Shown: positions 7,321 to 60,076 of the stretch, in pieces
Position numbering within the stretch: position 1 is the stretch's first letter
How the letters are laid out: every line of letters begins with the position of its first letter
Source of the DNA: Octopus sinensis
Lineage: Eukaryota
Direction: 5' to 3'
Length of the DNA: 64,000 nucleotides
Assembly (NCBI RefSeq): GCF_006345805.1
Contig: NC_043013.1
Span: forward strand, 12,462,001 to 12,526,000
Notes under the pieces: model-generated
The model's database searches: none
The model's input: the letters and a program-made list of their open reading frames with translations, nothing else
Told to the model about the DNA's origin: nothing
Translations under genes and position numbers: made by a program

Positions 7321-7869
7321 TTGAGACTGAAGAACAGGCAGAACTGAGTAATACAGACAATGTGAAGTCGAAGGGATCTACGACAGCGCCACCTAGCAAT
7401 GGCTTCCATGACAACAACAACAGCCACAATCCTACAAGTGTCTTAGAAGATGGCGGCGGAGACGACGGAGCGGATGAAGATAACAACAAGGATGGGAAGA
7501 CAAAGAGGCAGGGGGAAGAGGAAGAGGAGGGGGCTGCTGCTGATGATTCTTTAAATACCGATGCTACCACCACCACTACCACCACAGCCGCAGCAACCAG
7601 TACCACGACAACCCCCACCGACACGACAGCAGCAGCATCACCAACAGCAACTACAACAGCGGCAGCAGAAGCAACTACAACAACAACAACAAGCATGACA
7701 GCTAACACTAACACATCCACTGCCACCACCACTGCTACTAGTACTACTACGACTACTTCTGCCAGTAAGGAGGTGGTGAACACAAATGGCACAGTTGGCA
7801 CAGTGGCACAAGAGGACGGCAGCAGCAAAGATGGTTCAAAAATGGTCACACAACCAACTGGTGTCGATA
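7321..7869 (+). CDS. zfh1: zfh1/ZEB N-terminal low-complexity coding exon (acidic, then Thr/Ala-rich)
   Basis: Pyrimidine tract ending ttttctAG at 7320 and GTGAGT donor at 7870. 549 nt, stop-free, phase 1-1 (ETEEQAELSNTDNVKSKG...QPTGVD). Mixed codon usage, unlike the pure-repeat ORFs. Confidence 0.7.
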
Positions 7870-23331: not shown

Positions 23332-25459
23332 ATCCCTCCCCCCCCCGCCTTACCCTGTTTGTCTTTTCTGTATCACCTCTTTTCTCATCCTAACCCTGCT
23401 CTTTTTTTTTTTTTTTTATTATTATACCTAACCTGCTTCCTGGCCTGATGATGATGGCAGTGGCATAGGTAGTGGGGGTAGTGGTGGTGGTGGTGGTAGT
23501 TGTGGAGTGGGGAGGGAGGGCGGTGGCTGATGCTGATGATGAGGATGAGGAGTAGGAGGGGGAGGTGGATGGCAGTGGGCAATGACTGTGCTGGTGCTGG
23601 GTGGGGGGATGGGTGGGTGGGTGGGAGTGTTCGCTGGGACATTTCCTACTTACAAACCTTACCATTCATATATACCTACCTACCTACCTTATATATATAT
23701 ATATCCACCACACCAATCTTGAGAGAACACAAACAGCAGCAGCAGCGGGGGGGGGGTGGCGACGACCAACCTTCATCATTTTTGCTGCCACCATCTCACA
23801 CAGTCACACATGTATGTATATATATATATATAATATACATATAACTTGGCACCACCAAACATCACACATACACACATACACAGAAATATGAACCTTTTTT
23901 TTTTCTCTCTCTCTCTCTTTTACTTTAAACCTATATATATATATACTATCATTCATCACAGACTCACTGAAGAAGTGCTGTTGCTACCCCACCAACGACA
24001 GCAACAACAACAAGGACAACAACACCAATAAGTCCTTTTCTTCTGTGTAATTGGCACTTCAGACTCTGTCTCACAACATCACACCATTATTATTACTATC
24101 ATCATCATCATCATCATCATCATTATTATTATTATTACACACTGCCATTCTAACATCTAACTCTGACAGCCACCATCACCCCTGCTACTACTACTAATAC
24201 TACTACTAGTACTACTACTACTCACTAGACTACAGTAACAAGTCTCTGTACCTATTACACATAACCACTGCCACCACTACTATCATCATCATCATCATCA
24301 TCATCACTATCTCTTCTCACTGTCCCATGCACATACACACACACACACACATATACACATATATGTATACCTGGCATTAATCAAGACCACTACTTCACTT
24401 CATCACCACGACCACCACCACTGCTAGCATCATCAGCATCACTATACCTCTTCTTTTCTTGCTGTCCCCCCTCACACACACACACACAACACACACACAT
24501 TTACCTGGTCTTAATTAAGACCACTATTTTCAAACTTACCATATAATATAACATTACCACTTGCAAAAAAAAACACACTTTAGGGGGAACTCTTAGGTGG
24601 TCACTCAGTTTGCTAAAAATAGCAGCAGCCAACCAAAATCTTTCTTTTCTCTCACATGACAAATTCTACCTTCTTTGGAAGGAAGAAAGAAAGAAACAAG
24701 TCTTTTATCAAACACCTACCCCATCCCATTTCGAACCCCCACCTCCAAGAATTGACAGGATGGTTATGCTTAGAAGAATACCTCCAATCACAGACTGGCT
24801 TGGTGGAAAGGGGCTTGACTTGGAGTTTAGCAATAACAAAAATATTAGGAGCTCAGACTGACTTTATACTGTATACACCACCACCACCACCATCAGCAGC
24901 ATCAGATCCCCACCACCACCACCACCACCACTGTCATCATCAGTTACAGTAGCAGCAGCAGCAGCATTTTCCACACACTTTCTCTAAGAGCCCTTTTCTC
25001 ATTTATACACACACCACCGCCGCCGCCATCACCATCATCAATGTTATTATCATCACACACCTTGACAAAGGCCGTCGCCGCCGCCGCCGCCATCGCCACC
25101 ACCACCACCACCACTAGCATGGTCCCAACATCCGTTCATCATCTCACACACCTTCACTTTAAGGTTTCGCTTCTTCTAGGCAACACATCATCACTTACCC
25201 AGCGTTAGCTTGAGGTGAGAATAGAGAGGAACACAAAGAACAACAACTACAACAACAACCTGTGTGCCAGGACCCATAAATAAGCCCCCCTTCCTTTCCC
25301 AACACCTGGGTTTTTTTTTTTGGATTTTTTTTTTGTTTTTCTATTCCTGGATTGTCTTCCGTTTTTTTTTTTGGGATTTTTTTTTTTTAACGATGATTCT
25401 TGAACGACTTCAGAATGATGACCTTCTCTTTGACTGGGTGCAATTCCTTCTCTATTCAG

Positions 25460-25809
25460 ACGCTAACAACAACAACAACAGCAATACCAACAACATCAAC
25501 AACAATAACATCAAGAAAGGTGCAACATCATCATCATCATCAACAACAACAACAACATCAACAGTAGCAGATACTACGACAACAGCAATAACAACAACAA
25601 AACAAAGGATGGAGATGACGGTGGTGGTGGTGGTGGTGGTGGTGGTGGAGGCGGAGGAGGAGGCGGAGGAGAGGAAGAAGATGAAGAGAAGAAAAAGAAG
25701 GAGGTGATGGAGGAGGAGGAGAATATTGAGGAGTACCTTAACCGAAGTGACACCGCTGTCATTTACCCGCAGCCTGTCAGTGAACCTGATGAGGAAGATG
25801 ACACCGGAG
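25460..25809 (+). CDS. zfh1: zfh1/ZEB exon with the conserved IEEYLNRSDTAVIYP motif; apparent 1-nt frameshift as assembled
   Basis: Acceptor ccttctctattcAG (25459) and donor GGAG|GTAAAT (25810). The 3' part reads EENIEEYLNRSDTAVIYPQPVSE, resembling the vertebrate ZEB2 segment IEEYLQRSDTAIIYPE. The donor is phase 1, but the length of 350 nt is not a multiple of 3. Confidence 0.8.
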
Positions 25810-37776: not shown

Positions 37777-38523
37777 TTAAGACGAGATGACAGAAACATC
37801 AACTCTAAAATCTTTTTAGCTATAGGCAACAAGACCTGAAATTTTGCAGGGAAGGGAGCTTGTCGATATTATATCAACCCTGGTGCTCAACTGGTACTTA
37901 TTTTTATGAAACCCCGGAAGGATGAAAAGCCAAGTTGACCTCAGCAGAATTTGATCTCAGATCATAAAGCCATGAAATGCTGCTAATCAGTTTGTCCAGC
38001 TTGCTAACCCCCTGCCAGTTCAAATTTTTCGTTATTTTTCAAAATTAATTGAAACAAAGGCTCTGTATTTTAAGGGAGAGAGACGTAGTAACAAAAGGGT
38101 TAACTAAAATACCAGTTAACTGCTAGGGGCCAATCTAATCGCCTGTTCCCTCATCCAAAGTGTGTGGCCTTGCTTTAAGCTGTTTATTTTTAAAAAATCA
38201 TGAAGAACCCAGAGTGGGGTACAATTTGGCAGTTCCAATGTTAATTAAGCTTCGTTTTTCTCCCAGACTTTTCTTTGAAGGTTCTACGATTACCCCCAAC
38301 CCAACGCCCCTCCTTACACACATGCTCACCACTACATTCACCTTCCTCTTTTTGTGGACCCTAAATGCCTTCAGTCTGTAGAAGTAGGGTGGGGAGGGGG
38401 CTTTATCAGCTTATCTTCATTTCTACAGATTTGGTTCCAGACTTCTAAAGTTACTGGCAGCAAATAGTGTGTATATGTCTATGTGTGTGTGTGTGTGTGT
38501 ATATATACACATACATACATACA

Positions 38524-41236: not shown

Positions 41237-43734
41237 ATTCTGTGAATAATACCGATGATGAATATCTCTTGAAATGTATGCACTGCAAGGAATCTTTCAG
41301 TCAAGAATCTCGGTTGCATTCTCACATTAAAGCAATGCATTCAGAGAAGTCTGTGAAATTCATGTGTTCGAAATGCGAAGAGACATTTACGCTGAAATCC
41401 CAGCTTGATAACCATATGGAACTGCATTTGGCCACTTCACAGACTTGTACTGTCTGTAAGAAAACATTTGCCAATGTCTACCGACTTCAGCGCCACATGA
41501 TCAGCCACAATGAGAGCACATCGCTACGGAAATTTAAGTGCGAGGAATGTGGCAAAGCGTTCAAATTCAAACATCATCTCAAGGAACACATTCGTATTCA
41601 TTCTGGAGAGAAGCCTTTTGAATGTTCCAACTGCCGGAAACGGTTCAGCCACTCCGGTTCCTACAGCAGTCACATGACCTCCAAAAAATGCTGGGTCGTG
41701 AACATGAAGAGTCGTCGGATCGACCACAATGGTAACGCAGGTGACTCTGTTCCATATTCTCCGGCCTCTAAAAATGGACATAGCCAGTCGGCCATCTCTT
41801 TGCAAAAATCCTCAGGCAGTCTTCCACGACAATTAATTACATATGATAACCCCAACTCTAGCCTTCCAAAATTCTTTCCTAATGCTTCTTCATACATCTC
41901 ATATCCCATGTACCCTCAGAAGGAGAACCTTTCCGACAGAATCGCGCCACTAACCAACCAGACTATTGCACATTCTAATTCCTCAAAAGTATCTTTTAAT
42001 CAGAAGCCTTCTCTAACAAAAAATACAAAACTCTCACCTGACATGAACTCAAACATGCAGCCTTTATCGATGGTAGTCCTGAAGAAACCTGACAGTCCTG
42101 CCGTACCCTTGCAGTCACAAGTGACCTCTCCGCCTCTTGACGAACAAGTCATCAAAACTGAGCCATCAGACCAGTCGGAGGTCATCAAAGTTTTAAGTAG
42201 TGTCAATATTAAGAAGGAAAATTCTAAAGACGGTTTTCCAGTAACCGACGTCATGCAAGAGAAGCACTCCGATTCCCCTCCTCTTCCTCCATCCAACTTT
42301 GTAGATGCCAAAGATGTTGATCTCACATGCCGATTTTGTGCATCAGCCTTCCGCAGTCCTGTGGCACTGCACCAACATGAACGCTATCTATGCAAATCCA
42401 ACAAAGATATCGTGCATAGAGTTACCAACTTGGAGGTAACGTCGTGCAACAGTCCGAGTAGTACAACTTCCTCGTCGGAAATGATTAAACGCGAGACACC
42501 AAACGGCAGTTTGGAGAACGGCACCGATGAGGAGGAAGCAGAGGAAATTTTCAAAGAGGAAAACCTCGATAAGAAGTTCCGTATGCGTTCCATGATAAGC
42601 GACGACCAGCTGCAGGTTCTGAAGAAATATTACCAGCTCAACCCTCGACCTCGTAAACATGACCTGATAAAAATCGGCAATGAAATTGGTTTCCCGAAAC
42701 GCGTGGTGCAGGTTTGGTTTCAGAACATGAGAGCACGAGATCGTAAGAAAGGTAAAAATGTCCCGTATTTCCCCGCTATGGCTCGTTTCAAACAACAGGA
42801 GGATTCAGCAACCACGTCCTCCACATGGAAAGAGCCAGTAAAATCTACTAATTCGGCCTACATCCCTGTGGTTCCACATTTCAATAATTCTGTCCAAATT
42901 CCTTCTGGAATTCCACCATCATCATCGCCTTCATTTCCAGCTCATTCACATACAAAAGTAAACGGTCAGTTTAACGCTGCCACCGAAAACCGTGATGCCT
43001 TGTTCAATAACCAGGACCAACCTTTAGATCTTAGTCTGAAAAGAGAACCCCCCAGAGCTCACAGTGGCCACAAACCAGTCAGTAGCAATGCCTATAATTC
43101 CCATCCTCCTCCTGCTACTCCCAGTCAGAATTTTGATAACGAAGTTCTAAACCTAAGTTGCCGATCTCCTATCAGTGTCAAGCAAGAACATGTAGATGGC
43201 GCAAGCTCTGCTCAAAGTAGCTTCCAGGAATCTGCTCTGTATAAATATATGAAGCAAGAAGGAATGATTGTTAACAAGCCAGCCCTTAACCAAGACGCGA
43301 CCTCGTTAAGCAAGCTTTCCCATTCCAGTCCCATTCCAGCCGCGATGCAAGACTCTCTCACATCACCTTATCGCTCCAGTGGCAAATCCATTGCCAGTGG
43401 GGAGAACGAAAGCAAACCCAAAGTTCCAAAGTCTGAGTTGAAGCAGCCCGATGACTCGTCAATGTCAAGTGATGGTTCTATAGACAGCGTTAGTAATCGG
43501 TCTCTCGTCATTGACGAGAGTAAATTCCACAATGAGAAAAGCGACGGTGACTGTCTTTCTGATGATGATGATGAAGATGATGACGATTCCGACGAAGATG
43601 ATTCTCCACCAAGACTGTCAAATGGTTTGTCCGATGGTAATCTCACTCCTTCCAAGATGAGAGAAGACAACCATCAGACAAATCCAGATGGCACCAAAAA
43701 ACCAAAACGATTACGCAAGAAGTCTTGGAAACAG
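41237..43734 (+). CDS. zfh1: zfh1/ZEB large central exon: N-terminal zinc-finger cluster, isolated CCHC finger, homeodomain, CtBP motif
   Basis: Acceptor ttttcttcAG (41236) and donor CAG|GTTAGT (43735). It encodes four C2H2 fingers plus the ZEB-signature CCHC finger ([46 protein letters not shown]), a homeodomain at ~42571-42753 (VVQVWFQNMRAR), PLDLS at 43021-43035 and VLNLS at 43144-43158. Confidence 0.97.
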
Positions 43735-51121: not shown

Positions 51122-51623
51122 TATATTATAATACACCATCATTGTCATCATCATCATCATTTAATGTCCATTTTCCATGCTGGCACAGGTTGGACAGAGT
51201 GACAGGAGATGACTAGCTGAAGGGCTATTCTGGTTTCCTGACTGTTTTGGCATGGTCTACTCCTAACGCCACACTGGATACTCTTCCTAGTGCCACATAT
51301 ATATGCCCTGTAAAAGAACTTGGGAGGTTGGGTCTCCAACCAAGCCTTTTATGACACCCTTTAAGCCAGAAACTTTTTTTTCAGCACCCCCTCTATACAC
51401 ACACACACACATATATATATATTATCATCATCATCGTTTAACGTCAGTTTTCTATGCTAGCATGGGTTGGACGGTTCGACTGGGGTTTGGGAAGCCAGGA
51501 GGCTGCACCAGATTCCAGTCTGATCTGGCAGTGTCTCTACAGCTGGATGCCCTCCCTAACACCAACCACTCCGGGAATGTAGTGGGTGCTTTTTACATGC
51601 CACCAGCACAGGGGCCAGAGGTT

Positions 51624-52875: not shown

Positions 52876-53248
52876 AAAAGAATATGTATTCACACACGCA
52901 CACAAACACACATACACGCATACTCCTGTACCCTTTTCTTCAATTACTATAGTAAAACTGATCACAGCCTTTACTATATACTCTTTTATCTCGTAGTTAA
53001 CCATCTTTCCATTTTATTTTCTATACTTCTTACTGCCTGCTTGTTTTGCAATTTTATATATTTGTTATTAGTCTTTATTTAGTATATTTTTATATTTTAT
53101 TTGTTATATATTCGTTTAAATTGCTTTAACACTGTGTTTTTGCCCGCCCGCCTACCCTCCCAGTCCCTTGCTTTGCCAACTAACCAACAATATATTAAAA
53201 AAGCTATTTCTAACTTTTTAAAAGAGTCTACCCTGTATTGCATGGCAG

Positions 53249-53441
53249 ATGGCATCGGAAGAAATCCAGCTCGACCTCGAAGAGACAAATACGGTCGATG
53301 AAGATCACCCACATAGGAAAAAACGCCGATCTTGGAAGAATCATCGAGTCGACGTAGAGGAAGGCTTATATGCTTGCGATCAATGTGATAAAATGTTTAG
53401 CAAGCAGAGTTCACTTGCTAGGCATAAATACGAACATTCAG
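53249..53441 (+). CDS. zfh1: zfh1/ZEB exon with the first finger of the C-terminal cluster
   Basis: Phase-0 acceptor ggcAG (53248) matches the donor at 43735. Encodes [26 protein letters not shown]. Donor CAG|GTAAAA at 53442 is phase 1. Confidence 0.95.
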
Positions 53442-53600
53442 GTAAAAACTAGCATTTGATGACCTCTGTGAGGGGGGGGGGAATGTACATATGCAGTGTT
53501 TGGTGAATGTCTTGGATAGGTTGTATGAGAAGGAGGTGAGGTTTTGTGGTGGTGGTAGTAAAAAGTAATAGATAATTCAAGGAAGAGGAAAAAAGATGAG

Positions 53601-59852: not shown

Positions 59853-60076
59853 GAGCACGTCCGTTTGTGTGCGATGAGTGCCCGAAGGCGTTCAAACACA
59901 AGCACCACCTAACCGAACACAAGCGGCTGCACAGCGGTGAAAAACCATTCCAGTGCAAGAAGTGCTCCAAGCGCTTCAGTCATTCTGGTTCTTACAGCCA
60001 ACACATGAATCACCGCTACAAATACTGCAAACCACCGAAGCATGACGAGGAGGAAGACATCGGCGCGAATGAGTGA
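59853..60076 (+). CDS. zfh1: zfh1/ZEB terminal coding exon with the last two C2H2 fingers and stop
   Basis: Phase-1 acceptor cccactggcAG (59852). Encodes (G)[55 protein letters not shown], with TGA at 60074-60076. Confidence 0.97.

What the first reader, a model, noticed from the sequence alone, without database searches (positions are those of the whole stretch)
25460..25809. Frame break inside a ZEB exon, with a TGATG stop-start overlap
Seen: the exon enters in phase 1 in frame A (DANNNNNSNT...ITTTKQ), while the conserved IEEYLNRSDTAVIYP motif and the phase-1 donor are in frame B (-1). Frame B is blocked at 25506. Frame A ends at TGA 25705-25707, which overlaps ATG 25707-25709 of frame B (gaggtgATGg, strong Kozak context). 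Synonymous third-position variation fits frame A on the left (AAC/AAT) and frame B on the right (GGT/GGA/GGC, GAA/GAG), so the crossover is probably at the A4 run 25599-25602 (ACA AAA C), just upstream of a GG-rich tract. Inference, in order of likelihood: (1) a 1-nt assembly deletion or polymorphism, giving a ~1282-aa protein with the candidate first exon; (2) -1 ribosomal slippage stimulated by a G-quadruplex; (3) termination-reinitiation of the type known for influenza B BM2 and caliciviruses, giving a ~276-aa low-complexity protein and a separate 1005-aa ZEB; (4) a weak in-frame acceptor at 25515/25516.
Basis: partly seen in the sequence, partly recalled or inferred. Interest (0 to 1): 0.8.

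Follow-up and report, generated by a model that had tools for sequence, protein, structure and literature searches.

The report
Missing base in octopus ZEB exon
An exon of the octopus ZEB transcription-factor gene is one base too short to read through, likely because the genome assembly dropped a letter in a repetitive stretch, not because the cell uses an unusual translation trick.

Summary
The frame break is real in the sequence. Exon 3 of Octopus ZEB/zfh1 (25460-25809) is 350 nt between two phase-1 introns, one base short. No frame entered at acceptor 25459 reaches the conserved EYLNRSDTAV motif.

A single-base assembly deletion is the likely cause (0.88):
- All 15 mollusc orthologues checked have an unbroken frame through this region, including a cuttlefish-like, transcript-like contig.
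- There is no X_XXY_YYZ slippery site and no UGGGA (TURBS motif 1).
- The TGATG is simply Val-Met codons read one base off.
- The same assembly has many such lesions. 18 of 105 protocadherin matches have short frames. In the 13 that could be aligned, 17 of 18 single-base lesions are deletions, 12 lie in homopolymers, and one copy is otherwise identical to an intact one.

The decisive test failed: the read tool skipped 25393-25733 as repeat, so the missing base was not seen. A single-copy GPCR control gave a roughly tenfold lower error rate. A real indel allele (0.06), alternative splicing (0.03) and recoding (0.03) remain open. This is an ordinary artefact of low interest.

The parts
7321..7869 (+). 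ZEB coding exon 2 (549 nt, phase 1-1, 183 codons, low complexity); inferred to splice to exon 3
   Evidence: Canonical AG/GT. Stops per frame are 0, 6 and 13, and the coding frame is stop-free in 1 of 2000 dinucleotide shuffles. An NGFHD-like motif aligns with mollusc orthologues, only weakly above shuffles (8/300 at best). The junction to exon 3 was not seen in reads.
25440..25459 (+). Pyrimidine-rich splice acceptor of exon 3
   Evidence: 13 of 17 pyrimidines and CAG; the best of the 6 candidate acceptors scored here
25460..25809 (+). ZEB exon 3, 350 nt, one base short of phase 1-1
   Evidence: donor use shown by RNA-like contig X8
25462..25598 (+). Left part, read in frame A (Asn/Ser/Thr-rich)
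   Evidence: 0 stops in frame A and 2 in each other frame; alone this is not above chance (567/2000 shuffles)
25576..25610 (+). Likely site of the missing base (ACA repeat and A4 run 25599-25602)
   Evidence: Inference (model-dependent) and codon patterns; not seen in reads
25608..25706 (+). Frame B poly-Gly / Glu / Lys tract; the GG-rich 'quadruplex' is the Gly codons
25705..25709 (+). TGATG: frame-A stop over the frame-B Met; start of the public models P0001/P0121
25725..25769 (+). Conserved IEEYLNRSDTAVIYP motif
   Evidence: Recognisable in 15 of 15 mollusc orthologues listed. Runs X1, X4 and X6 match 25734-25809 with 0 other letters and X8 with 1.
41237..43734 (+). Exon 4: N-terminal zinc fingers and homeodomain, intact
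   Evidence: 100% to P0001; boundaries
53225..53443 (+). Exon 5 (two acceptors, 53224 and 53248; 3' end approximate)
   Evidence: isoforms P0001/P0121 differ by 8 aa
59853..60076 (+). Last coding exon, C-terminal zinc fingers

Best explanation
Exon 3 of the Octopus ZEB/zfh1 gene is one base short in this assembly, likely because the consensus sequence dropped a single base in the ACA/A-run stretch near 25600. In the animal the exon would be 351 nt, spliced phase 1 to phase 1, and translated normally into one ZEB protein with a long low-complexity N-terminus. The TGATG would then be only the codons GTG-ATG (Val-Met) read one base off. Shown: exon length, frames, donor use, unbroken orthologues, absence of recoding signals, and the assembly's lesion spectrum elsewhere. 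Inferred: that this particular base exists in the animal, where it sits, and the exon 2-3 junction.
For: (1) Orthologues: in 15 of 15 mollusc ZEBs examined the DTAV motif sits at residue 95-186 of one unbroken protein. P0002/P0126 come from 5059- and 4234-nt Logan contigs that encode the whole protein and cluster with Sepia pharaonis ZEB2. (2) No X_XXY_YYZ in 25460-25704, and no TGGGA, GGGA or GGG. (3) Upstream coding signal is intact: exon 2 is stop-free, 1/2000 by shuffle. (4) Base rate in G000: 18 of 105 protocadherin matches have open frames under 700 aa. In the 13 of 18 with a fetched paralogue at 90% or more there are 17 single deletions, 1 insertion and 2 two-base lesions. 12 of 18 single-base lesions lie in runs of 3 or more, where such bases make up 20% (P = 2e-5). 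The one nonsense call lies 2 nt from an alignment gap. L092 equals intact L105 over 2510 nt except one A in AAA. One T-run reads T6, T5 and T4 in L085, L113 and L091. Homopolymer-biased indels are the described long-read error pattern (PMC8574707, passages). (5) The needed sign (-1) matches the 17:1 deletion bias. (6) Weak: none of the 24 listed runs holds more than 0.78 of the exon's 32 sampled words.
Against: No read or contig letter was seen at the break: 25393-25733 was skipped as repeat. No Octopus protein spanning the break was found. In a mostly single-copy control only 1 frameshift was found, itself in a paralogue cluster, among 20 fetched of the 23 GPCR matches with internal stops (150 listed). 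That is about 1 per 100 kb against about 1 per 11 kb in protocadherins, so the protocadherin rate may overstate the risk here. Some protocadherin lesions could be real young pseudogenes. The conserved first exon (RRKQxNP) was not found in 400 kb upstream (4 gaps) or by genome-wide patterns. Low-complexity alignments to the cuttlefish protein do not beat shuffles (348/500).
Confidence: 0.88

Rival explanations
1. The deletion is a real allele, heterozygous in the sequenced animal or recently fixed. Translation would start at ATG 25707 by leaky scanning or from another first exon, giving the 1005/1013-aa public model without the N-terminus.
For: Strong Kozak context. The public models P0001/P0121 start here. 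The conserved exon 1 was not found. The tract is slippage-prone.
Against: Exon 2 keeps an intact 183-codon frame. The stop lies 102 nt before a junction, which by general knowledge makes an NMD target. Truncating ZEB2 alleles are haploinsufficient in people (PMC11818587, passages). A model starting at the first usable ATG is what a frameshifted assembly would produce.
Confidence: 0.06
2. Splicing avoids the break, through an in-frame acceptor (25515, 25614 or later) or a small cryptic intron from donor 25520.
For: In-frame AGs exist, and so does a phase-compatible GT at 25520.
Against: All have purine-rich upstream tracts. RNA-like run X8 holds 20 of 32 words, unlikely if transcripts began at 25647 or later (P = 0.01), though 25615 (P = 0.13) and 25516 are not excluded (assumes even sampling). 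Frame A stays open from the strong acceptor. Other exon-2 donors do not rescue the frame.
Confidence: 0.03
3. Programmed -1 ribosomal frameshifting (or polymerase slippage) at the A4 run, stimulated by a two-tier G-quadruplex, would restore full-length ZEB.
For: The geometry is -1, and ViennaRNA predicts quadruplexes in 25603-25700.
Against: No slippery heptamer; the A ACA AAA site would leave the P-site tRNA mismatched. Poly-Gly codons give GG runs by necessity. Natural quadruplex-stimulated frameshifting was 'not currently known', and conserved non-mobile chromosomal cases are few (PMC5009743, passages). A run of four A is short for polymerase slippage (recalled). Orthologues are unbroken.
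Confidence: 0.015
4. Termination-reinitiation at TGATG would give a low-complexity N-terminal protein and a separate 1005-aa ZEB.
For: Exact stop/start overlap (0 of 39 in the exon-4 control). Some cellular cases lack a TURBS (PMC5972666, passages).
Against: No UGGGA motif 1. Non-quadruplex folding is only -2.8 kcal/mol. An in-frame ATG lies near 15 of 39 control stops. The Met is not conserved (5 of 15). Reinitiation after long ORFs is described as very rare. The frame-A tail (V9, then basic) looks like an off-frame reading.
Confidence: 0.015

Closest known systems
Residual single-base indels of long-read consensus assemblies
   Same: One-base loss in a homopolymer or low-complexity tract that splits an otherwise intact conserved gene; the same pattern is seen in this assembly's protocadherins
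   Different: Not confirmed by reads at this site; the tools do not state how G000 was sequenced
ZEB1/ZEB2/zfh1 zinc-finger homeodomain repressors (P0001 XP_029647147; cuttlefish-like P0002)
   Same: Domain order, DTAV motif, phase-1 exon 2 starting V-E
   Different: The Octopus N-terminal region is longer and repeat-rich; the public model lacks it; the first exon with the RRKQxxP NuRD-type motif was not located
TURBS termination-reinitiation (caliciviruses, influenza B BM2)
   Same: Overlapping stop and start pentanucleotide
   Different: No UGGGA motif 1, no conserved split in relatives, and a spliced nuclear mRNA with a downstream junction
Programmed -1 frameshifting (X_XXY_YYZ plus 3' stimulator)
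   Same: -1 geometry; a G-rich stretch 3' of an A run
   Different: No slippery heptamer; not conserved; the G-richness is explained by Gly codons

Membership tests
ZEB/zfh1 | Two C2H2 zinc-finger clusters with a central homeodomain | tested here: met
   Exon 4 is 100% to P0001, which carries PF00096 and PF00046; exons mapped
ZEB/zfh1 | Conserved EYLxRxDTAV motif before the first fingers | tested here: met
ZEB/zfh1 | N-terminal RRKQxxP NuRD-type motif exon | tested here: inconclusive
   Present in 9 orthologues used as queries. Not found in the window, in 400 kb upstream with 4 gaps, or by patterns.
TURBS termination-reinitiation | Overlapping or adjacent stop and start | tested here: met
   TGATG 25705-25709
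TURBS termination-reinitiation | Motif 1 UGGGA upstream of the stop | tested here: not met
   No TGGGA, GGGA or GGG in 25460-25709; definition from PMC5972666
TURBS termination-reinitiation | Motif 2/2* pairing that displays motif 1 | tested here: inconclusive
   Only a general fold was run: -2.8 kcal/mol without quadruplexes
TURBS termination-reinitiation | Downstream ORF depends on upstream translation | not testable with these tools
   Needs a reporter assay
Programmed -1 frameshift | X_XXY_YYZ slippery site in the zero frame | tested here: not met
   None in 25460-25704; definition from PMC5009743
Programmed -1 frameshift | 3' stimulatory structure | tested here: inconclusive
   Quadruplex predicted, but an obligatory by-product of Gly codons; no shuffle control run
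Programmed -1 frameshift | Split frame conserved in relatives | tested here: not met
   15 of 15 mollusc proteins unbroken; no other Octopus sequence of this exon was obtained
Assembly indel error | Raw reads carry the missing base | tested here: inconclusive
   The read tool skipped 25393-25733
Assembly indel error | The same assembly shows deletion- and homopolymer-biased frameshifts in otherwise intact genes | tested here: met
   lower rate in GPCRs

The most novel reading that the evidence does not exclude
The 350-nt exon is real and fixed in Octopus, and ribosomes recode it by a -1 shift ahead of the Gly-codon quadruplex or by stop-restart at TGATG. This would set the ratio of full-length ZEB (with its N-terminal co-repressor motif) to a ZEB lacking it: programmed recoding in a non-mobile animal transcription factor.
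Probability: 0.03. Interest if true: 0.85.

Novelty: not a real feature. Interest (0 to 1): 0.08.

Why it matters
As an artefact it matters only for annotation. The public O. sinensis ZEB model likely lacks about 265 or more N-terminal residues (exon 2 and the first part of exon 3), and gene or pseudogene counts in repeated families of this assembly need care. If the recoding reading were true, it would be a rare case of programmed recoding in a cellular developmental regulator, separating a chromatin-remodeller-binding N-terminus from the DNA-binding part.

Tried and rejected
- Reads (X1, X4, X6, X8, all Logan contigs, 4 of the 24 listed): 25393-25733 was skipped as repeat, so the missing cover there says nothing. 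Contigs carry 60-141 unseen letters upstream of 25734.
- Small-share runs X15-X24 were not used.
- Protein searches with exon 2 and frame B gave no hit. The representative search gave 23 weak hits. Of the 12 read, 4 carry the DTAV motif and none is the Octopus exon.
- A second copy of the exon in G000 was not found (1 match).
- Exon 1: protein query, no candidate; long pattern, 0. The short pattern gave 10 matches, none on C17; the one read (L027) sits in a repeat-like element without start or donor. tblastn and regex over the window and 400 kb upstream were negative.
- Alignment of each partial frame to the cuttlefish protein did not beat shuffles.
- Entry in the third frame (Thr/His/Gln tract) was rejected: it needs an unseen phase-changing exon plus an insertion, and stops at 25565.
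- Protocadherin rows left out of the tally: L083 and L087 (no close paralogue); L084, L094 and L095 (under 90%, though tblastn shows a frame change).
- GPCR control: 3 of 23 stop-containing matches were not fetched. Of 20 fetched, 18 show a single-frame hit consistent with an exon end (splice sites not checked), L125 has an in-frame stop after a donor-like GT, and L134 has a frameshift.
- Earlier findings: 3 look-ups, all empty.
- Literature: searches (listings only) showed no report of recoding in cephalopod ZEB. No supplements were read.

Full report
Gene and anatomy. The window is G000:C17:12462001-12526000. Its 2.5-kb exon (41237-43734) is 100% identical to P0001, named 'zinc finger protein 1-like' of Octopus sinensis, a ZEB/zfh1 orthologue. 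The coding exons in the window are 7321-7869, 25460-25809, 41237-43734, 53225/53249-about 53443 and 59853-60076. The public models P0001 and P0121 begin at ATG 25707.

Observation. Exon 2 ends in phase 1 and exon 4 begins in phase 1, but exon 3 is 350 nt. Frame A is open from the acceptor to TGA 25705. Frame B is closed at 25464 and 25506 and then open to the donor. The third frame stops at 25565. So no upstream phase lets acceptor 25459 reach the conserved motif, and other exon-2 donors do not help. The donor is used: RNA-like contig X8 runs from 25809 into exon 4. The switch must lie in 25509-25704. Composition models disagree on where (25582-25611 at 0.88, or 25612-25704 at 0.81).

Relatives. 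In 15 of 15 mollusc ZEB proteins examined, the DTAV motif lies at residue 95-186 of one unbroken sequence, and a Met falls within 25 residues upstream in only 5. Most are gene models, which can hide breaks. P0002 and P0126, however, come from single contigs of 5059 and 4234 nt that encode the whole protein and cluster with Sepia pharaonis ZEB2. Nine orthologues begin with RRKQxNP, which matches the N-terminal NuRD motif RRKQxxP (PMC11602157, passages). Octopus exon 2 looks coding: it has 0 stops against 6 and 13 in the other frames, and 1/2000 shuffles are stop-free. No Octopus protein spanning the break was found. The O. bimaculoides models (P0122, P0123) start at exon 4 with unrelated first segments. 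Exon 1 was not found.

Recoding signals. There is no X_XXY_YYZ heptamer and no TGGGA, GGGA or GGG in the exon up to the ATG. The predicted quadruplexes are the Gly codons; without them the region folds at -2.8 kcal/mol. Reviews describe UGGGA as the essential TURBS core and reinitiation after long ORFs as very rare, while noting cellular cases without a TURBS (PMC5972666, passages). They also describe conserved non-mobile chromosomal frameshifting as rare and natural quadruplex stimulators as not known in 2016 (PMC5009743, passages). In exon 4, 0 of 39 stops of the same shifted frame overlap an ATG exactly, but 15 of 39 have an in-frame ATG within about 3 codons. The overlap is therefore a modest coincidence.

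Reads. Fourteen runs hold half or more of the exon's 32 sampled words; the best holds 0.78. Four were laid. The tool skipped 25393-25733 as repeat, so the break was not seen. Over 25734-25809 three runs match exactly and X8 differs by one letter. X8's 20 words argue weakly that transcripts reach upstream of the Gly tract (P = 0.01 for a start at 25647 or later, 0.13 for 25615).

Error rate of the assembly. Of 105 protocadherin EC1 matches (150 of 263 candidates scored), 18 have open frames under 700 aa against about 800 or more for the rest. All 18 and 20 intact copies were fetched. Thirteen had a paralogue at 90% or more. They hold 17 single deletions, 1 insertion and 2 two-base lesions. 12 of the 18 single-base lesions are in runs of 3 or more (expected share 0.20, P = 2e-5), and the only nonsense call sits 2 nt from a gap. 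Three more show a frame change by tblastn and two could not be classed. L092 is identical to intact L105 over 2510 nt except one missing A. This is roughly one lesion per 11 kb, with the homopolymer bias reported for long-read errors (PMC8574707, passages; that paper found insertions, not deletions, dominant in its AT-rich genome). Against this, among 150 listed GPCR matches 23 had internal stops; 20 were fetched and one showed a frameshift, in a paralogue cluster. That is about 1 per 100 kb as a lower bound. Errors thus appear to concentrate where sequence is repeated. The ZEB break lies in a tract that the read tool itself treats as repeat; that polishing fails there is my inference.

Verdict. 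Even the lower error rate gives a few percent chance of a lesion in a 3.9-kb coding sequence. That is far above the prior for recoding in a cellular gene that lacks the signals and is unbroken in relatives. Assembly deletion 0.88, real allele 0.06, alternative splicing 0.03, frameshifting 0.015, reinitiation 0.015. A real truncating allele is disfavoured because the stop lies 102 nt before a junction and ZEB2 is haploinsufficient in people (PMC11818587, passages). Searches (listings only) showed no report of recoding in cephalopod ZEB. The bioRxiv paper 10.1101/2023.05.16.540928 was read in passages and adds nothing on this locus. No supplements were read.

Noticed in passing
G000 C14 and small contigs; loci L082-L099: 18 of 105 protocadherin matches have short frames, mostly from single-base deletions in homopolymers with no clear nonsense change. 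Protocadherin gene and pseudogene counts from this assembly are likely distorted.
   Followed up: yes
L092 (C10512) vs L105 (C14:59558929-59562329): The small contig duplicates a chromosomal protocadherin letter for letter over 2510 nt except one A; likely an unpurged haplotig with a consensus error.
   Followed up: partly
L134 (G000:C11:10458160-10460086, minus): A GPCR in a paralogue cluster has a frameshift near the 5' part of the 7TM domain.
   Followed up: partly
window 37780-37894 and 51513-51618: The N-terminus of the O. bimaculoides model P0123 matches these intronic repeat-like stretches, so that model's first exons look spurious. The N- and C-terminal extensions of Sepia model P0125 also look non-coding.
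   Followed up: no
window 53224 and 53248: Two in-frame acceptors 24 nt apart in exon 5 account for the 1013- and 1005-aa isoforms.
   Followed up: partly
G000:C17:12062001-12462000: The conserved ZEB first exon is not found in 400 kb upstream; four 100-N gaps lie there (12065195, 12239590, 12281782, 12354250) and could hide it.
   Followed up: partly
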